A DNA stretch of 64,000 nt. Origin: Naegleria gruberi. Taxonomy: Eukaryota. The stretch lies in the NCBI GenBank assembly GCA_000004985.1, contig GG738881.1; one strand, written 5' to 3'. Below, piece by piece: positions 9,489 to 31,284 of the stretch. The translations under genes and the position numbers were made by a program. Below the pieces are notes generated by a model. The model was given only the letters and a program-made list of their open reading frames with translations. It ran no database searches and was not told where the DNA came from. The first letter of the stretch is position 1. Each line of letters opens with the position of its first letter.

Positions 9489-10373
9489 ATGTCTTCAAAT
9501 CAACAAGGAGTTGAAAATAATACCAAGCAAAATCTCTCATCGGAACGTTTTGCAGTTAATATTTCTAATCATGTGGGTACTGTCGTATTAAATAGACCAA
9601 AGAAGATGAATGTGATGGACAAACCATTCTTCTCTGAATTTTATCAAGCCATTCATAGATTGAATGAATCAGATGATGTTTATGTTATCGTATTGAAGAG
9701 TACACCTGTTGATCAGTGTCCGCACTTCTCTGCTGGATTGGATTTGAAGAGTGTTGCCTCTGATATTATGCCATCAGCTTCCGATGATGAATCTTCTCCT
9801 GCTGTGGCCAATTTGAAATTATCAAAATTAATTAATGAAATGCAACAAGCTTTTAGAATTTTGGAAACTTGTAAGAAACCAGTGATTGCTGCTATTAATG
9901 GAATGTGTATTGGTGGAGCTATTGATATGATTCTTGCTGCTGATTTTAGAGTTTGTACAAAGGATGCTATTTTCAGTATTAGAGAAACCGCTGTTGGAAT
10001 TACTGCTGATTTGGGTACTTTGAATAGAATTCACAGAGTTGTTGGAAAGGGTTTTGCAAGAGAAATGGCATTCACTGCTGCTGATGTTAAGGCAGATCGT
10101 GCTTATCATTTTGGACTTGTCAATCAAGTATTCGATTCTCAAAAGGAAATGTTTGAAGCTGTTGACAAGATGGCTAAAACTATTGCTTCTCACTCTCCTC
10201 TCATTGTTCAATCTACAAAACATATTATGAATCATGCTGAAGAACATTCAATTGAGGATGGATTGGCCTATGTCAAACTTTGGAATAGTGCTTTCTTGAA
10301 ATCTGATGATTTAACTGAAGCTTTCATGTCATTCATGGAAAAACGTAGACCTAAATTCAAGAATAAATTGTAA
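9489..10373 (+). CDS. ECH1: Enoyl-CoA hydratase/isomerase family protein, ECH1-like delta(3,5)-delta(2,4)-dienoyl-CoA isomerase; C-terminal -NKL (possible PTS1)
   Basis: 294-aa ORF with crotonase fold motifs (…AAINGMCIGGAIDMILAADFRVCTKDAIFSIRETAVGITADLGTLNRI…). The C-terminal third aligns to ECH1. Ends KFKNKL. Confidence 0.75.
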   Translation: MSSNQQGVENNTKQNLSSERFAVNISNHVGTVVLNRPKKMNVMDKPFFSEFYQAIHRLNESDDVYVIVLKSTPVDQCPHFSAGLDLKSVASDIMPSASDDESSPAVANLKLSKLINEMQQAFRILETCKKPVIAAINGMCIGGAIDMILAADFRVCTKDAIFSIRETAVGITADLGTLNRIHRVVGKGFAREMAFTAADVKADRAYHFGLVNQVFDSQKEMFEAVDKMAKTIASHSPLIVQSTKHIMNHAEEHSIEDGLAYVKLWNSAFLKSDDLTEAFMSFMEKRRPKFKNKL

Positions 10374-10374
10374 A

Positions 10375-11121
10375 TTATTTCAATTGACTTTTGATTGTTG
10401 AGGTTAATTCCACTATTATTTTAAACTCCACATTAAAGATATTAAACCAAACTTGTTTCGTTTCACTTGTTGCTTCCTCTTTGGTTAACATTAATTCATT
10501 AATTCCAAGTAATTCAGCTGTCAAGTATATTATCGAAGCTGCAATTTCATTTGGATAATAGGTACAGCAACATTTTGAATCATAAATCTTATCCACTAAT
10601 TTAAAACAAAATTGAATAAAACTATTCTTGATAACCAAATTTCTATAACCATTCAATGAATCACAATATCCCAAAATATATTTATGTGGATGTACCACAG
10701 CAAATTTAAATTTGATACTTCTCATCACTATACTTTCATATCCAATAATACAATCCTTGAAATTATGAAGATCAGTGTCAAGTAATCCATATGGTTCACT
10801 CTCAGGATCCAACACTTTCCGACAAGAATTAATAACATCCCTTGCTCTTCTCACTTGTTCCTCACTTTTACAAGCTAGAAAAACACAAGCACATGAAATA
10901 AGTGTCCAATCACATGACGAATGTTCTATTGTTTTCAAACTTGAATGAAAATAATACAAGGCTGTACATGTTGCTGATTGAGTAACTTCTAACAAGTAAC
11001 ACATCCTCCGAATGAGTCTAACATTTTCTTTGATTTTTTCTTCGTGTGATTGTTGTAGTAAAGGATGTTGTGATTGCAAAGCATATGGACTATGATAATA
11101 GGCTTGATTTGAAGACATCAT
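10375..11121 (-). CDS. CCNQ: Cyclin Q (FAM58A/CCNQ) homologue
   Basis: 248 aa. Cyclin box region LACKSEEQVRRARDVINSCRKVLDPESEPYGLLDTDLHNFKDCIIGYESIVMRSIKFKFAVVHPHKYILGY matches human FAM58A [70 protein letters not shown]. Confidence 0.7.
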   Translation of the reverse strand: MMSSNQAYYHSPYALQSQHPLLQQSHEEKIKENVRLIRRMCYLLEVTQSATCTALYYFHSSLKTIEHSSCDWTLISCACVFLACKSEEQVRRARDVINSCRKVLDPESEPYGLLDTDLHNFKDCIIGYESIVMRSIKFKFAVVHPHKYILGYCDSLNGYRNLVIKNSFIQFCFKLVDKIYDSKCCCTYYPNEIAASIIYLTAELLGINELMLTKEEATSETKQVWFNIFNVEFKIIVELTSTIKSQLK

Positions 11122-11302
11122 TTTTTATAATTCGATTTTTAAATAATTATTAATAATATATATTTATAAATTAATAAATATTCATTGTAAAGTGTTTAAT
11201 AACATTCTCCTAAAAGAAATGATAAACTACAAAATTTCCAAATTAAATCGGAATTAAATAGAATTGGAAGGAAATCAAATAAAAATTAATTAATAATAAA
11301 AA

Positions 11303-13356
11303 ATGTGGGCAAACTCTGTTCTCAAATGGGCAGAACAAACATTGGAAACTGTGGATAGAAGCACAGCAGGAGCATCTAAAAAACTGACAACATTGGGGAA
11401 ATTGGATGATGATTCGGAAAGTAGAATTGATTCTTCGGTTCATGAAGATGAATCAAAGAATGTTGATCACTATAAATCATCGGAAGAAGGTACTGCATTT
11501 GTTACAGCAAATCATACTGCATTAACATCAACAACAAATAGTGTTGCTGTTGAAAATGTTAATTTTGATAAGATCAGAGAAGAGGCGGAGGAGGAATTGA
11601 TGAATGAATTCTTCAAGAAGAGTGAATCGGAAAGATTGGAAGAAGCCTTGCAGTTTGTAAAGGATTGTGCAAATTCATCAATTATTGGAGAAACTACTGT
11701 CCAAGTGGAAGGAGATGAAACTTTGAAGCAAAATCAAGAAATTTCCAATGAGAAATCAATTGTTACTCTCTATGATCAAGTGAAGAAAGTTGAATACTTT
11801 AACAAGAATTTAAAAGAACATTTCGACAAGTTAACTTCTCAATCAAAACATTCACAACGTTATAATGCCGAATCACAGAATGTAAGTACCTCTGGAAATA
11901 GCATGAATATTTAAATATTTGAAGAGATTGGAAGAACAAGTTTCAAGACTTTTGGAAGAGAAAGTTAAAACAGACACAGAGTTAACAAATACACTCAATG
12001 AACGTGATAAACAAGCCCAAAAGTATCAATCGAGGGTTGATGCACTAGTAGAGCAAATGAAATTGAAAGATTTATTGATTTCAGAAATGCAAGGAGAAAA
12101 AGACATGTACGTTTTATTATTATTATTGATTATAAATTAATTTTAATAATAGGATGGCAAATGAGCAATTAAGATATGAAAAATCAACTGCTGAAGAAAT
12201 TACCAAACTGAAACAACAAATTGAAGACCTCCAAAATCAACAAAAGGAAAATAAGAAAGAGGAAAAACAAATCCACAAAAAGATGGAAGAATTGGAACAT
12301 AAACACCAAGAAGCTGTTAAAAAGCTTAAAGAAGAATACTCTGAATTGGAATCTACTCTCAATGAGAAATTGGATGAAATATCTAGATTGGAATCCAATA
12401 TCAAGTTGAAAGAACAAGAATGGCAAGCTAAAAATCAAGAATATTTGGAATACAAGAACAGAGCCGCCAAACTCTTATCTGTGAGAGACAAACAAATCGA
12501 AGAATTAAAAAAGTCTGGAACCGAATCAGGTGATAAAAAGGAAGAAACTGCTACAGATGACGACACTGATTTAATGAATGCCTTGGATAAAGAGGACATG
12601 CTCTTGGATTTGGAAAACTTGAAAGCTGATAATCAAGAACTTCAATCACAAATTGAGCTGATGAAAAAGCAACACGAAGCTGAAATGAATACACTCAGAT
12701 TCAAATTGAAAAATATGGAAAAGAATCTTGAAAAAGAGAAACAGTTGAGCGCTAAATACCAAGAAAATATAACCTCATTGAAACTTAATTTTGATGAAAT
12801 GAAGCATCAATATGAAAATGAAAAGAAGCTCATTAAAGATCAATTGAAGGAGAAGAAGGAAGAAATTAATCAACTTCAAAAGCAACTCAATCAAGCCAAA
12901 TATAATAATTCATCCAATCAAAATGAGCTTGAACTGAGAAATAGAGCCATGGCTGAAAGACTCATTGAGAAACAGTCCCAACTCGAAACTGTAAACAGTG
13001 AAAAAGCAGCCATCCAACTTGATTTGGAAAAATGTCAATTGAAGATTAAGGAACTTCAACTGATAGCTCAGGTTACACCAATTTCTAGAAATTATGCCGA
13101 TGAAGAATCACCATTTGATAATGAAGCACCATCGGTTTCTGTAAAATCAGATAGATTCTTTAGAGATTTATCAAAGAGAGGTTTTGTTGCCAGGCGAGTG
13201 GCTCATGTTATGGCCTTTATTGATTCATTTTCAATTTCAACTGGAAGTATTTTGAGAAGATTACCACTTTTGAGAATTTTACTTGTTATTTATATTATAA
13301 CTCTTCACATATGGGTCTTTTACATTTTATCCCATTTGGCTCATCTCTCTCAGTAA
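11303..13356 (+). CDS. GOLGA5: Golgin-84 (GOLGA5) homologue, tail-anchored coiled-coil golgin; join(11303..11881,11925..12106,12153..13356)
   Basis: Long coiled coil. The C-terminal segment …FIDSFSISTGSILRRLPLLRILLVIYIITLHIWVFYIL… matches the conserved golgin-84 TM/tail region. Two 43- and 46-nt introns (GTAAGT..AG, GTACGT..AG) restore one frame across three ORF-track fragments. Confidence 0.7.
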
Positions 13357-13438
13357 TAACTTAATCTTTGTAAATAAAAACCTTGAACACTACATGATCA
13401 AATAATTATTGAAAAAATCATGTGGAAATAACTAAAAA

Positions 13439-14905
13439 ATGGAAAAAGAACACAACACGGAAGAAACAAGCAATAAAAATTCATCTTGTTTGTCGTCATC
13501 ATTGGAAAGAGTGAAAGCATTCACAGAGCAACATCATCTCATTCCAAAAGAACCCTCACAGAATGATGATTCGGAATCACAACAATCGATAGTAGCATCA
13601 GAATCAAAAAATTTGAAATTTAAAATTGATGATGATGAATTCACTACAAAAAGTCATCGTATCATGTGCATTGATACCTTTCCCAAAATTCCATATTCTG
13701 ATGAAAATAAGAGAAATAGAAATGCACTTCATTGGGGACAACGTAAATTACTTTTATCAGAAATTGAATTTCTTACCGAATATTCACATGATGGAGATGT
13801 CGTGATTTATGCTGGAGCTGCTCCAGGTAGTCATTTAGTTTATTTAGCAGAGGTTTTATTTCCCAATCTCAAATTTATGCTTGTGGATCCAAATAAGTTT
13901 AATAAGGATTTGTATCATGTTAGAAATGTAACAATTATGGAAAGTTATTTCACAGACGAAATTGCAATGGAAATTAAAAAGATTAGGAATATTGAAAGTG
14001 GAAATAATTTACTATTTATTAGTGATATTAGAACTGCTGATCCACTAGTTATGGATCCAGAACAAAATGAAAAATGTATTACGGAAGATTTAACATTACA
14101 AAAAGGATGGTTGGAAATTTTACTCCCTCGATTCAGTATGTTAAAATTCAGACTCCCATTTACAGAAGGTAAAATTAAATACTTTAGAGGTGATATTTAT
14201 TTACCAGTTTGGGGTAGAAAATGGACAACTGAATGCAGACTTGTCATTAAGGAGGAGGATATCAAAGATTCCAATCAAATTGAATATGATAATCTTTCTT
14301 ACTCTGATCAATTATTCTATTTTAATAATATTACAAGATTTGAAAATATTTATCCACATGACATTTGCTCAGATGGGGTGGACAATTGGTAAGTGATCTT
14401 GTTGTTGTATAATTTTTTACTGAACTTGCAACTACGGTAAAGCTATGACTGTAGATCAGAGATTTTAATTTTACAAAACTTTATCAAGAAATTTCCAGAA
14501 AGAAAGAAAGACATCACCTGTAGTGAAGATTATGAAACCATTAATGAGAATGAAATAATTTCACAATGGATGTCTGACATTTCTCATCAAATCTCCACTA
14601 AAAAGAGAACGTTGATTCACATGCCAGACACATCCATATTTAACTTTGGGCCTACAATTCACCTTCACCCTCAACAACAAAATTGCAAAGAGTGGCTTGA
14701 TATGAGAAATATGGTTTTGCAGAGGACAAAACAGTTTTCCCAAAAGGTTCATTCAAAATCATATCATGCATCTAGTTCACAATCTTTTACACCAACAGAG
14801 ATGGAATCAACTACAGTTTCTGAAAGTACACAATTGGATGATGATAATTATGAACAAACAAAGAAGAGGAGACGTAGAAAGAAGAAAAAATCACATGTAC
14901 AATAA
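13439..14905 (+). CDS. Poxvirus VP39-like mRNA cap-specific (nucleoside-2'-O-)-methyltransferase homologue; probable join(13439..14388,14524..14905)
   Basis: HWGQRKLLLSEIEFLTEY…VVIYAGAAPGSHLVYLAEVLFPNLKFMLVDPN…LLFISDIRTADP…SMLKFRLPFTEG…TECRLV is colinear with vaccinia VP39 (YQGQLKLLLGELFFLSKL…TVVYIGSAPGTHIRYL…ILISDVRS…SLKWRCPFP…AEMRLL). It includes the K-D-K-E catalytic tetrad positions. A second exon after a 135-nt GTAAGT..TAG intron is in frame and ends in a basic tail. That exon is less certain. Confidence 0.6.
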
Positions 14906-16268
14906 TTTGAAACCTTTACAAATTTCCAATACCATCCCTAATTGATGATTGCTGAGTATGTAAATGAAAATAGTTTCTTATCAGAATATCGTGTCTATTA
15001 CAAGAGAACAATTTAGGTTTTTCATCAAATGATTTTTGAGCTCTAAACCCAGAAATGAAACTTTGAGAAACGAACTCTATTAATGAATACTATACATCCT
15101 ATCTCATTTAATTTGAGACTTTGTCATTAACCCCAAGTAGTAATATTAATTTTATACAATGGCTGTTTGATGTTTCGTTTCTAATATTATTTCAAAAATC
15201 TAATAATAAGTTTGATCACTAGAAGCGGATCTTCAAATAACATAATTGGTAAACAGTGTTGACAAATGAAATAACGGTTAACATGGTAAATATCTGTGTG
15301 ATATTGAGTAATTTTCTTGCAAAGATCGTAAAATGGATATTTCGAGATCAAAAGTGGTATTCCTAGATTCAGTGATTGGCGCCAAAATCATAACTGATAT
15401 CTTTCCAACATACAAAACACTGATGCATTTGTCAACGTTAAAAATCTCTCAGAATAACTGTTGAAACATTCTGAGAAATTTCTACCCAAAATTGGTTTAC
15501 CTAATAACTGAATTAACTGAATGTTTGTTAAAAAGACACTGCTCAAAGTTGATGTTAAAATCTCTATGAATGTCTATTGATTATGTGAAATTCACAATAG
15601 TCAATTGATTTTGCAAAAGAGGTGATTGTATTTTTCAAAACTGAGTATTACAACGTGTAGTGCACCAAAGATTCCCTCTGAAAGCAGCAATACTTCTGAC
15701 AATCTCCCTCAAAATTATCCACTTTGATTGCATATTCAAATTCCATTGAATGGACAACCTGAGTAGTATGTAATTCCACTTCTTTTGGTTTGAGTTACAA
15801 ATGCTTACTAATATTCTGAAAATAGTGTTAAACTGCTGCAAGGTCAATACGTTGATTGCCAGTGAGAGTATATGGAAAGAGGCTATCTCAATAAATACAA
15901 CTCTTGATGAGCATTGATAAGGTTCTGTAAATCTAAATAATTCAAAGTATCTCTTGGAATCTTGTGTGAAGAGTCTGATTGCAATATGTGTTGAAAGATG
16001 CAATTAGAAATTGCTTGAAGTAATTAGTTGTTTATGATCCTCATATTTAACCATGAAACATACGAAACTGAGAGAAACTCAACTATTTTCATGCAAACAC
16101 ATATTTTGGAAAGTTATAACAATAATACTTGGATGCTTTTATCAATTTATGTTGTAATCTATCCATTGTCTCAGAATACATCAAGTTGAATTTGATAGAA
16201 TTTACGATTTCAACTCCAAGGAGTATACTGCTACAACAACAATAACCATTCAACCATCATCATAAACA

Positions 16269-21734: not shown

Positions 21735-21954
21735 TCATGGTAAAATCAAGTGCATTACTTATTATGACTTTTAATATTATGTTGCAAGAAGAGCTTCAAC
21801 ACCTTTCATTATGAACATTTGGAATGTAATAAACCACAGCTTACTAGCAAATTAAAAAGATTAGATTTACAATATTATTATATTGGAAAGTGAGATTAAT
21901 TGTTTTGGCGTCGTTCGTCGTTGTCTTTATCACTTATGATGAAATCCAATGTAA

Positions 21955-22026
21955 GGCGGCTTAGCACAGTGGTAGTGCATCAGTCTTGTAAACTGAGGGT
22001 CGAGGGTTCAATTCCCTCAGTCGCCT
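21955..22026 (+). tRNA. tRNA-Thr (anticodon UGU)
   Basis: 72-nt cloverleaf: acceptor GGCGGCT/AGTCGCC (one G-U), D-arm GCAC-AGTGGTA-GTGC, anticodon stem TCAGT/ACTGA with loop CTTGTAA, T-arm GAGGG-TTCAATT-CCCTC. Followed by TTTT. Confidence 0.8.
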
Positions 22027-22229
22027 TTTGTTGAATTGTTTTTTTCTATTTTCCATAAAAGAACGAATAATTGGAATAATCTTTAACAGTTAATGAAACA
22101 AACCTTGAGTGATATTTAAATAATTTTAAAATATTAGCTTATTGTAATTATTTTAATATTAAAATAAAGTAATTTTTAATAATTTAATATTTTTTTTATT
22201 ACAAGCAAGGTCTTGATGATGTGATGGAA

Positions 22230-27262: not shown

Positions 27263-27343
27263 TGCAGAAGGTGGGATTTGAACCCACGAAGCTTGCGCAG
27301 TAGAACTTGAGTCTACCCCCTTTGACCACTCGGGAACCCCTGC
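27263..27343 (-). tRNA. tRNA-Leu (anticodon CAA), class II with long variable arm
   Basis: Minus-strand sequence GCAGGGG-TT-CCC-GAGTGGTCAAA-GGG-G-GTAGA-CTCAAGT-TCTAC-TGCGCAAGCTTC-GTGGG-TTCAAAT-CCCAC-CTTCTGC-A. Acceptor stem has two G-U pairs. Anticodon loop is CTCAAGT. Confidence 0.75.
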
Positions 27344-29074
27344 TTCACATTCATTCACATTCATTCTTTATCACACTGAAATAGAATTCTATTTTCTAAA
27401 GTACACAACTACACTGAAGGTCCTTCTTACTTTCGTATTATCATCTTTATTCACCAAGAAAGCCTGACTGGTAGCCTTATTCTTTCAAATATTTTCTTGA
27501 ATCTGTTATTGAATTTTTTCCCAATTTTTTAACCATAACTTTTCTGCATAACAATTTACACTTTCAGAACCAATATAACATCATTGAGGATGCAAGATTG
27601 ATAAAACCATTGACTGTACTTCTACAGGATCTTTTCTGTAGGAATACATAAACTCGACTTTTTTGAGTCAATCTGACCTTTGAGGTTAACCAAGATGAAG
27701 ACTCTGTAGTCACATATCTTGAGCATGATATCGAACTGGAAACATGCTTCGCTGTAGGTTTCCTCGTTCATAGATGATTGCTGCATTCCTTACCAGCCAT
27801 GGTTTGTGAATGGGGGATTTGTGAACATGCAGATTGGTACCTTAAACTTTTTATCAATTAATAGAAAATTAATACCCTAGCTGCCAATAAACTAAAATTA
27901 AATTCTATCAAGATCGGAATATCAACACTTTCCTTTAATTTACTTTAATCAACATGGTTAAATGTAGATTGTGTATTCAAAGCTAATCTTGAGCTCACAA
28001 TTCTTCTGAATGAACATCAACTAAATGTTTAGTTATCTTCATTGCACTGTATTGGAGTTAGACAAGTGTTGTTCTAAAGATTTGACATTTGTCATGGAAA
28101 TTAACACTTGCTAGGTATGTGTTTAATCCTCTTCAAAGAAGTCTAATACTATACTATTGTTTTTGAAAAAGTAAAAGCAAATATTTGAAGACTCAAATCC
28201 GTAAATTGATCTTTTATTGATCAACCACAAGTATCTCTTTCTAAATGATAAAATTCAAAGGTGATATATAGATGGTCACGTAGCAAGCTTTTCTAAATAA
28301 CAAACTTACTGAACCAACAATCAATAGATTCGTTGCCTTCACTGTTCATACAGTCAAAGACTGTAGCGGGATAGTCGCCATATTCCTGGCAGGCTTCCCG
28401 TCTAATTTAACAATTGAAATTTAAATAATACAATAATATGTTCCTCACAGTAGTAAGGGCAGTAAATTGATTATCAATCAAAAAAAATGAAATATTTAAT
28501 ATGGCCGTATATTAGTTCACAATATTCTCATTTAACACTCATATTGATTTTGTAAAAATGTAGTTACTTGGAACGATGATTCAAAATGGAAAAGTTCCAA
28601 TATTGCTTTTCAAAGATTGAGAAGATTGATATTTGAGCAAAATGTTAGAATTGAATACTTTAAGTTTTATTTACAATGATCGCCTAGGTTTACAAAATTG
28701 TGAGTTGTGGAGATTACCACATTTTGAATTGTTTGTTTCTCATTTCTAAAGTATTATGTGATTGAGATTTAGAAGTTTTACTTGTTTCATTTCCGAAATT
28801 TCCTTGGATAACATTATTGGTGAAGTGTTATTGGAGGAATTATACATATTTCTTCTTGTTGAGACCATTTTCTTATTATTATTTTGTTATTTTCTTTTGT
28901 AGATTTTCATTAAATTTCCTTCATCAAAATATTAATAGAAAAATTCAAACTTCTTGTTAAAAATCGGAATCACAAAATTAGTGGAAATCATCTTGGAAGT
29001 AAATAGATAACTGATCGGATGATGATATTTCCACAACAAAACAAAATAACTAAATAACAAACACTAAGAGCAAA

Positions 29075-29945: not shown

Positions 29946-30067
29946 GTATGGCTACGGCCATATCACGATGAATGCACCTCATCCCGTCCGATTTGAGAAG
30001 TTAAGCATCGTCGAGCCACATCAGTACTGAGGTTGGAGACAACTTGGGAACCTGTGGTGCTGTAGTC
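29946..30067 (+). rRNA. 5S ribosomal RNA gene (dispersed copy)
   Basis: GTATGGCTACGGCCATATCACG…CATCCCGTCCGATTTGAGAAGTTAAGC…GTACTGAGGTTGGAGACAACTTGGGAACCTGTGGTGCTGTAGTC matches conserved 5S helices and loops (CCGATCTG/AAGTTAAGC, GGGAGACC-like, TGCTGTA 3' end). It is followed immediately by TTTTT, a Pol III terminator. About 122 nt. Confidence 0.8.
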
Positions 30068-30309
30068 TTTTTGATTGCAATAGGAAAATCTATCCTAATA
30101 TATGGTTATTCATGGATTAAAAGCATCTTTTGTAATGCAATGTTTGAGAGTGGTGCATCTTTCTGTGATATTAAGGACGATGTACCCTCTAGACAAAATT
30201 ATTCGAACCATCACATTCACTTGTTCAATTAGATAATTGCTAAATACTTTATTTTACATTTCGATATGTACCTTGTAAAGTGCAGGGAAGTTTTGATGAG
30301 GAATTTGAG

Positions 30310-31096: not shown

Positions 31097-31168
31097 CAAT
31101 CTTGAGATGCGTCGACCGGGAATTGAACCCGGGTCACGGCGATGGCAACGCCGTATTCTACCACTAAA
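31097..31168 (-). tRNA. tRNA-Gly (anticodon GCC)
   Basis: Minus strand GCGTCGA-TG-GTTT-AGTGGTA-GAAT-A-CGGCG-TTGCCAT-CGCCG-TGAC-CCGGG-TTCAATT-CCCGG-TCGACGC-A. Close to the eukaryotic tRNA-Gly-GCC consensus. Confidence 0.85.
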
Positions 31169-31284
31169 CCATCGACGCTTCTTGTTCAAATGACTTGTTA
31201 CCTATTTGTAAAATTAAATATGAATGCTTATGTTAAAGCAAACGATTTTAGGAATTGTACGCGTCCTTTTGAAAGTTAAAAAAA

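What the first reader, a model, noticed from the sequence alone, without database searches (positions are those of the whole stretch)
13439..14905. Cellular homologue of the poxvirus VP39 cap 2'-O-methyltransferase with an intact K-D-K-E tetrad
The protein is colinear with vaccinia VP39 over the whole Rossmann core. The SAM-binding motif (VVIYAGAAPGSHLVYL vs VVYIGSAPGTHIRYL) and the four catalytic positions are conserved: K in RKLLL, D in ISDIR, K in LKFR, E in TECRL. Canonical eukaryotic cap1 formation uses the unrelated CMTR1 architecture. VP39-type enzymes are otherwise known from poxviruses, other NCLDVs and kinetoplastid cap-4 enzymes. In an amoebozoan genome this is a candidate for virus-to-host transfer, or the reverse, or a lineage-specific cap2-type activity. 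The flanking genes (golgin-84 upstream, a host-like low-complexity protein downstream) and the host-like codon usage and intron argue it is a bona fide nuclear gene rather than a viral insertion.
Basis: partly seen in the sequence, partly recalled or inferred. Interest (0 to 1): 0.7.

Follow-up and report, generated by a model that had tools for sequence, protein, structure and literature searches.

The report
Naegleria VP39-family mRNA cap 2'-O-methyltransferase gene
This is an ordinary nuclear gene of the amoeboflagellate Naegleria gruberi for an RNA-cap ribose methyltransferase of the poxvirus-VP39 / trypanosome-MTr2 family, a family already reported in this species and widespread in protists and giant viruses.

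Summary
Window 13439..14905 (+) encodes a protein that matches only Pfam PF01358 (VP39), at E 2e-32. The K-D-K-E tetrad (K103, D196, K236, E265) and the SAM motif are intact. Solved VP39 structures are by far the best structural matches.

The interpretation needs four corrections.
- **Organism.** The window is Naegleria gruberi NEG-M (Heterolobosea, Discoba), not an amoebozoan.
- **Intron.** The donor is right, but the acceptor is at 14442, not 14523. The intron is 54 nt and the protein 470 aa.
- **Novelty.** Werner et al. 2011 already placed N. gruberi, Paramecium, Perkinsus and Monosiga proteins in the TbMTr2 branch of the VP39 group. I found relatives in Amoebozoa, choanoflagellates, apusomonads, dinoflagellates, centrohelids and many giant-virus MAGs.

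The "resident nuclear gene" claim is well supported. N. lovaniensis has the same gene order and the same intron position and phase. N. fowleri has an ortholog. Composition and codon usage match the host. Naegleria has at least three paralogs of this family. Which cap-adjacent nucleotide this one methylates cannot be read from sequence. The direction of any virus-host transfer is unresolved. Interest is low.

The parts
13439..14388 (+). Exon 1: codons 1-316 plus the first two bases of codon 317. It covers a disordered N-terminus (about 1-75) and most of the methyltransferase domain.
   Evidence: ORF listing and translation. PF01358 match to residues 85-321. AF2 model pLDDT 83.
14389..14442 (+). 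Spliceosomal intron, 54 nt, phase 2, GTAAGT...AAAG.
   Evidence: Joining 14388 to 14443 gives ...GVDN-C-YDCRSEILILQNFIKKFP, which matches N. lovaniensis ...GVDNCYDCRSEIHILTMFLNKFP. The DNA alignment shows the annotated 69-nt N. lovaniensis intron at the identical position and phase, with conserved exon flanks and a diverged interior. P0002 and P0003 end in GVDNW, which is the same intron read through.
14443..14905 (+). Exon 2: the last base of codon 317 through the stop codon (TAA 14903..14905). It covers the C-terminal helices of the VP39 fold, a Ser/Thr-rich tail and a basic cluster.
   Evidence: Translation. BLASTP colinearity with N. fowleri and N. lovaniensis orthologs to residue about 421. 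The equivalent helices in the ortholog model have pLDDT 90-96.
14443..14523 (+).
   Evidence: C317 and C320 are each Cys in 113/121 family members, and D319 and E323 are >=90% conserved. The segment forms helix 321-336 in the N. lovaniensis ortholog model.
13802..13828 (+). SAM-binding motif I, VIYAGAAPG (residues 122-130).
   Evidence: Aligned to VP39 VVYIGSAPG. Y124 and G126 are invariant; A125, A127, A128, P129 and G130 are >=90% conserved.
13745..13747 (+). Catalytic K103 (VP39 K41).
   Evidence: 121/121 K.
14024..14026 (+). Catalytic D196 (VP39 D138).
   Evidence: 121/121 D.
14144..14146 (+). Catalytic K236 (VP39 K175).
   Evidence: 120/121 K.
14231..14233 (+). Catalytic E265 (VP39 E207).
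   Evidence: 120/121 E.
13694..13696 (+). Y86, inferred equivalent of VP39 Y22 (one face of the m7G stacking sandwich).
   Evidence: Y in 117/121 and F in 3/121 family members. The correspondence to Y22 is by spacing to K41, because the HMMER alignment starts at VP39 residue 28.
14159..14161 (+). F241, equivalent of VP39 F180 (the other face of the m7G sandwich).
   Evidence: Aligned LKFRLPF / LKWRCPF. The column is always aromatic: W 84, Y 33, F 4.
14861..14890 (+). Basic cluster KKRRRRKKKK (residues 457-466), a putative nuclear localisation signal.
   Evidence: Read directly from the sequence. A similar cluster, KRKKRRKHKKRNKK, is in the N. lovaniensis ortholog. The NLS function is inferred, not tested.

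Best explanation
The locus is a resident two-exon nuclear gene of Naegleria gruberi. It encodes a 470-aa enzyme of the VP39/TbMTr2 family (Pfam PF01358): SAM-dependent, cap-dependent RNA ribose 2'-O-methyltransferases.

Shown here:
- Family membership and the VP39 fold.
- An intact SAM motif and an intact K-D-K-E tetrad.
- A conserved aromatic pair at the positions that sandwich m7G in VP39.
- Orthologs with conserved synteny and intron position in other Naegleria species.

Inferred from the VP39 and TbMTr2 literature:
- The enzyme binds the m7G cap between Y86 and F241.
- It positions a cap-proximal ribose at the K103-D196-K236-E265 site.
- It transfers the methyl group of SAM to the 2'-OH, probably in the nucleus, given the C-terminal basic cluster.

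Which nucleotide is methylated (N1, N2 or N3) is not determinable from sequence. Family members with cap1 (VP39), cap2 (TbMTr2) and cap3 (TbMTr3, medusavirus Cap3MTase) specificity are all known. Naegleria carries at least three paralogs.
For: - **Pfam.** PF01358 is the only hit, at 112.5 and 110 bits for the two gene models against a cutoff of 25.4.
- **PDB sequence search.** It finds only VP39, and the tetrad aligns.
- **Column conservation** of the catalytic, SAM and aromatic cap-pocket residues.
- **Organism identity** from exact protein matches.
- **Synteny.** N. lovaniensis has ECH(+), cyclin(-), Golgin_A5(+), PARP_regulatory(+), the same order as window 9489..14905.
- **Intron.** Identical position and phase in N. 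lovaniensis.
- **Orthologs.** N. fowleri FDP41_007673. The orthogroup has bootstrap 1.00.
- **Composition.** GC 0.32, GC3 0.24, and RSCU correlation 0.90 with neighbouring genes, whose own range is 0.70-0.96.
- **Literature.** N. gruberi members of the TbMTr2 branch (PMC3113572). Variable positional specificity within the family (PMC13393146; PMC9479742).
Against: - There is no transcript or protein evidence for this locus. The only extra contig found, ENA k127_162750, is unspliced genomic DNA.
- No enzymatic data exist for any Naegleria member.
- The residue equivalent to VP39 E233, which contacts m7G, is Ser289 here and Ala in N. lovaniensis and N. fowleri. 109 of 121 relatives keep Glu. Cap recognition may therefore differ in detail.
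- No N. gruberi protein model for this locus was returned from the protein collection. Existing annotation therefore gives no independent support for the gene model.
Confidence: 0.85

Rival explanations
1. A recent giant-virus (NCLDV) insertion or a fragment of an endogenised viral genome in the N. gruberi assembly, rather than a long-standing host gene.
For: Giant-virus MAGs encode relatives as similar to the window protein (up to 46-47% identity) as the other Naegleria paralogs (40-46%). The family is described as horizontally mobile (PMC3113572).
Against: Orthologs sit in the same gene order in N. lovaniensis and are present in N. fowleri. The spliceosomal intron is conserved in position and phase. 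The flanking genes are ordinary eukaryotic genes: enoyl-CoA hydratase, cyclin, golgin-84, PH-domain and RGS proteins. There is no compositional or codon-usage anomaly.
Confidence: 0.03
2. The gene specifically encodes the cap1 (first-nucleotide) methyltransferase of Naegleria, standing in for a missing CMTR1.
For: Werner et al. mention N. gruberi only in the TbMTr2/VP39 branch and not among hMTr1 or hMTr2 orthologs. VP39 itself is a cap1 enzyme. Monosiga is described there as lacking any known cap1 enzyme while having a TbMTr2-type one.
Against: The absence of CMTR1/2 in Naegleria was not tested here. Three paralogs exist and nothing singles out this one. TbMTr2, TbMTr3 and the medusavirus enzyme act on N2 or N3.
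Confidence: 0.3
3. A catalytically active methyltransferase whose substrate is not the mRNA cap, for example snRNA, snoRNA or internal RNA sites, or a protein that has taken on a non-catalytic role like VP39's poly(A)-polymerase processivity function.
For: The E233-equivalent cap contact is replaced by Ser or Ala in this orthogroup. The orthogroup has long lineage-specific N- and C-terminal extensions.
Against: The aromatic cap sandwich is kept and the catalytic tetrad is under strict conservation. An adjacent acidic residue (D290) is retained. 12 of 121 relatives also lack Glu at this column. To my knowledge VP55-type poly(A) polymerase is restricted to poxviruses and their relatives.
Confidence: 0.08

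Closest known systems
Trypanosoma brucei TbMTr2 (TbCom1/TbMT48), cap2 2'-O-methyltransferase
   Same: Both are cellular, nuclear-genome-encoded members of the VP39 group in a discoban eukaryote with K-D-K-E. Werner et al. 2011 place N. gruberi proteins in the TbMTr2 branch.
   Different: No TbMTr2 sequence was available to me, so orthology of this particular paralog was not tested. TbMTr2 acts on the spliced-leader RNA as part of cap 4. Naegleria is not known (to my knowledge) to trans-splice or to have cap 4.
Vaccinia / monkeypox virus VP39 (cap1 2'-O-methyltransferase and poly(A) polymerase processivity subunit)
   Different: Identity is only about 30% over 214 residues. E233 is replaced by Ser289. 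The Naegleria protein has a roughly 75-aa N-terminal and roughly 110-aa C-terminal extension. It is intron-containing and chromosomal. No partner equivalent to VP55 is known.
Acanthamoeba castellanii medusavirus Cap3MTase and T. brucei TbMTr3
   Same: Same family. Both show that the scaffold can be tuned to the third nucleotide (PMC13393146).
   Different: The medusavirus enzyme is viral. Specificity of the Naegleria enzyme is unknown.
Human CMTR1 (PDB 4N48) and the FtsJ/RrmJ family
   Different: Much more distant than VP39. There is no Pfam FtsJ hit even at E<=10. The cap-binding mode differs according to PMC9479742.

Membership tests
VP39 / TbMTr2 cap 2'-O-methyltransferase family (Pfam PF01358) | Profile match above the curated Pfam threshold, better than any other methyltransferase family. 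| tested here: met
   110-112.5 bits against a cutoff of 25.4. It is the only family at E<=10.
VP39 / TbMTr2 cap 2'-O-methyltransferase family (Pfam PF01358) | K-D-K-E catalytic tetrad at the VP39 K41/D138/K175/E207 positions. | tested here: met
   K103, D196, K236 and E265 align. The columns are invariant or nearly so in 121 relatives.
VP39 / TbMTr2 cap 2'-O-methyltransferase family (Pfam PF01358) | SAM-binding motif I, and the acidic residue at the end of strand 2. | tested here: met
   VIYAGAAPG aligns with VVYIGSAPG. G126 and D150 are invariant. The role of D150 is inferred from its position.
VP39 / TbMTr2 cap 2'-O-methyltransferase family (Pfam PF01358) | VP39-type fold, including the C-terminal helices that pack on the Rossmann core. 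| tested here: met
VP39 / TbMTr2 cap 2'-O-methyltransferase family (Pfam PF01358) | m7G pocket: two stacking aromatics (Y22, F180) plus an acidic contact (E233). PMC13393146 calls this the 'Y-Y-E motif'. | tested here: inconclusive
   Y86 and F241 are present. The E233 position is Ser289 here, and Ala in N. lovaniensis and N. fowleri, while 109/121 relatives have Glu. The neighbouring D290 is retained.
VP39 / TbMTr2 cap 2'-O-methyltransferase family (Pfam PF01358) | Cap-dependent 2'-O-methyl transfer to a defined cap-proximal nucleotide. | not testable with these tools
   Needs a recombinant enzyme assay.
CMTR1/CMTR2 (FtsJ-type RFM domain) | FtsJ/RrmJ-type profile match, and closest structural similarity to CMTR1. 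| tested here: not met
Recent NCLDV-derived insertion | Viral neighbouring genes, atypical composition, no introns, and absence from sister species. | tested here: not met
   The neighbours are host genes. Synteny and the intron are conserved in N. lovaniensis. Composition and codon usage are host-like.

The most novel reading that the evidence does not exclude
Naegleria is a discoban, like the kinetoplastids. It uses its three VP39-family paralogs (possibly without any CMTR1/2) to build multiply ribose-methylated caps (cap2 to cap3/4-like) on its RNAs. In that case a kinetoplastid-style hypermethylated-cap toolkit would predate trans-splicing kinetoplastids within Discoba. This paralog, with its altered E233 position, would be one position-specific step.
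Probability: 0.15. Interest if true: 0.55.

Novelty: new member of a known kind. Interest (0 to 1): 0.2.

Why it matters
The finding matters little beyond curation. It gives a corrected gene model for an N. gruberi paralog that seems to be missing from the protein sets I could query. It also adds to the picture that VP39/TbMTr2-type cap methyltransferases are common in protists and intermixed with giant-virus homologs. The biological question it points to is what cap structures Naegleria mRNAs carry and which of the three paralogs makes which methylation. That question is open and experimentally tractable. It was already implied by Werner et al. 2011.

Tried and rejected
It is in frame but removes a conserved helix, so I rejected it in favour of 14389..14442.
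- **Ciliate-type reading of the in-frame TAA.** I rejected this because the neighbouring ORFs and this gene end on TAA and use CAA for Gln.
- **Transcript evidence.** The only other contig carrying the exon-2 ORF (ENA k127_162750, 795 nt) is 100% identical genomic DNA that starts inside the intron. It gives no splice information.
- **N. gruberi annotation around the locus.** The look-up of encoding contigs had no record for two N. gruberi neighbours. Exact look-ups of both gene models found nothing.
- **Structure prediction of the spliced window protein.** I used exon 1 and the N. lovaniensis ortholog instead.
- **afdb50 fold search.** It was meant to reach named TbMTr2/TbMTr3 models, but the library was not available.
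- **Supplement of Werner et al.** I wanted to see which N. gruberi protein they used and to obtain TbMTr2/3 sequences. The supplement is not held.
- **NJ phylogeny.** 165 sequences, 263 columns, 200 bootstraps. It resolves only the Naegleria orthogroup. The question of viral versus cellular origin stays open.
- **Downstream intergenic region 14906..16268.** No conserved element against N. lovaniensis by blastn or tblastx.

Full report
**What is at the coordinates.** Window 13439..14392 (+) is a 317-codon ORF that ends at a TAA overlapping a GTAAGT. A second ORF in the same frame runs to the TAA at 14903..14905.

**Family assignment.**
- hmmscan against Pfam-A returns a single family, PF01358 (PARP_regulatory, the VP39 family). 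The score is E 2.4e-32 and 112.5 bits against a gathering score of 25.4. Nothing else appears even at E<=10.
- phmmer against all PDB chains returns only vaccinia and monkeypox VP39, at about 1e-17. The printed alignment puts K103, D196, K236 and E265 on VP39 K41, D138, K175 and E207. It puts VIYAGAAPG on VVYIGSAPG.
Neither is met.

**Organism.** Five other window ORFs are exact matches to Naegleria gruberi strain NEG-M proteins from one 379,849-bp scaffold: EFC42149, EFC42152, EFC42153, EFC42161 and EFC42249. The genome is therefore heterolobosean (Discoba), not amoebozoan.

**Gene model.** The best homologs are listed below.

| Homolog | Length | BLASTP identity to the window protein |
|---|---|---|
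| N. lovaniensis C9374_007180 | 576 aa | about 50% over 462 residues |
| N. fowleri FDP41_007673 | 566 aa | 51% over 443 residues |
| Metagenomic protein P0002 | 311 aa | 59% over 311 residues |

- The N. lovaniensis protein reads ...GVDNCYDCRSEIHILTMFLNKFP....
- In the window, splicing 14388 to 14443 gives ...GVDNCYDCRSEILILQNFIKKFP.... That is a 54-nt intron, GTAAGT...AAAG, phase 2.
- A DNA alignment with the N. lovaniensis gene shows its annotated 69-nt intron at exactly the same position and phase. The exon flanks are highly conserved and the interior has diverged.
- P0002 and P0003 were called by a prokaryote-style gene finder and stop at GVDNW. That is the same intron read through.
- In a 121-sequence alignment, C317 and C320 are each Cys in 113/121 sequences. 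D319 and E323 are >=90% conserved.
- In an AF2 model of the N. lovaniensis ortholog this segment is a confident helix, with pLDDT 90-96.
- The corrected product is 470 aa.

**Structure.**
I therefore modelled exon 1 (316 aa, pLDDT 83.3, pTM 0.82) and the full-length N. lovaniensis ortholog.
- Foldseek of the exon-1 model against PDB lists VP39 entries as hits 1-21, at 7e-17 to 3e-14. The next hit is rice dwarf virus P5 at 5e-7, and FtsJ scores 1e-5.
- CMTR1 is therefore a distant relative in the same fold class, not unrelated. Werner et al. likewise place all of these in one superfamily tree.

**Cap pocket.**
- VP39 stacks m7G between Y22 and F180, with acidic contacts from D182 and E233. This is established from the VP39 crystal structures, and PMC13393146 calls it the Y-Y-E motif.
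- The window protein has Y86, which is Y in 117/121 relatives. It has F241, in a column that is always aromatic. It has E243 at the D182 position.
- At the E233 position it has Ser289. The N. lovaniensis and N. fowleri orthologs have Ala and P0002 has Ser, whereas 109/121 relatives keep Glu.
- An acidic residue follows directly (D290). I treat this as a lineage-specific variation of uncertain consequence, not as evidence against cap binding.

**Resident gene or viral insertion?**
- In N. lovaniensis the called genes around the ortholog are ECH_1(+), Cyclin_N(-), Golgin_A5(+) and PARP_regulatory(+).
- The window has the same order: ECH at 9489..10373(+), Cyclin_N at 10375..11121(-), Golgin_A5 at 12154..13356(+), then the target.
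- GC is 0.30-0.33 across the gene and its neighbours.
- The gene's RSCU correlates 0.90 with pooled window genes, and individual neighbours range from 0.70 to 0.96. GC3 is 0.24.
- Together with the conserved intron, this shows the gene was already in place in the common ancestor of these Naegleria species.
- N. lovaniensis has two further paralogs, P0016 and P0033. N. gruberi has at least the ortholog of P0033, namely P0095.

**Distribution and origin.**
- One search found 1665 relatives at E<=1e-3.
- Named eukaryotic sources are Thecamonas, Polarella, Brachionus, Ceratiomyxa, Flabellula, Soliformovum, Didymoeca, Gymnodinium and Pterocystis.
- IMG/VR holds 53 loci, many from giant-virus MAGs, at 29-47% identity. 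That is as close to the window protein as the other Naegleria paralogs are.
- An NJ tree (165 sequences, 263 columns, 200 bootstraps) supports the Naegleria orthogroup at 1.00. No deeper node exceeds 0.15.
- The direction of any virus-host transfer is therefore unresolved.

**What is already known.**
- Werner et al. 2011 (PMC3113572) state that the branch with trypanosome TbMTr2, inside the VP39 group, contains members from N. gruberi, Paramecium tetraurelia, Perkinsus marinus and Monosiga brevicollis. They describe the family as horizontally mobile.
- Positional specificity varies within the family: VP39 mainly N1, TbMTr2 N2, TbMTr3 N3/N4, and medusavirus Cap3MTase N3 in vitro.
- The target nucleotide of this paralog therefore cannot be inferred from family membership.
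- No N. gruberi protein for this locus came back from the protein collection, although its neighbours are there. The locus may be unannotated, but I could not check GenBank directly.

**Verdict.** The 'bona fide nuclear gene' inference is well supported. The taxon, the intron acceptor and the novelty claim are wrong. This is a further member of a known and widely distributed family, with low surprise value. The open and testable questions are which cap-proximal position each of the three Naegleria paralogs methylates, and whether Naegleria has any CMTR1/2-type enzyme.

Noticed in passing
window 29950..30068 (+), 27610..27838 (+), 21954..22027 (+), 27263..27343 (-), 31108..31178 (-): A small non-coding RNA gene cluster: 5S rRNA (105 bits), U3 snoRNA (76 bits), tRNA-Thr(TGT), tRNA-Leu(CAA) and tRNA-Gly(GCC).
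   Followed up: no
window 13439..14905: No N. gruberi protein model for this locus was returned from the 5.8-billion-protein collection, although five other N. gruberi proteins encoded in the window (among them EFC42149, EFC42152, EFC42153) are present. The gene may be missing from, or mis-modelled in, the NEG-M annotation.
   Followed up: partly
window 14303..14305 (codon 289): The Naegleria orthogroup has Ser or Ala where VP39 has the m7G-contacting E233 and where 109/121 relatives have Glu.
   Followed up: partly
homologs P0009, P0031, P0046, P0074, P0044, P0077, P0087, P0020: Some family members carry extra domains. WW (Ceratiomyxa) and G-patch recall the accessory domains of CMTR1. Others have ankyrin repeats or an Rpb5 C-terminal domain.
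   Followed up: no
loci L034-L037, L041, L047, L052, L053: In several giant-virus contigs the VP39-like domain lies inside very long ORFs (about 800-1900 aa). This suggests fusions with other functions.
   Followed up: no
homologs P0010 and P0012: One relative is labelled as from a Nitrososphaerota archaeon MAG and one as from the rotifer Brachionus calyciflorus. These could be mis-binned giant-virus DNA, contamination or horizontal transfer; none of this was tested.
   Followed up: no
locus L002 (ENA ERZ929261, contig k127_162750) = window 14425..15219: A 795-nt contig from a 'metagenome' assembly is 100% identical to this N. gruberi region. NEG-M-like DNA is therefore present in that sample.
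   Followed up: no
window 14906..16268: A 1.36-kb stretch without a convincing ORF lies between the target and the next gene. The gap at the same place in N. lovaniensis is about 2 kb and shows no detectable sequence conservation with it.
   Followed up: partly
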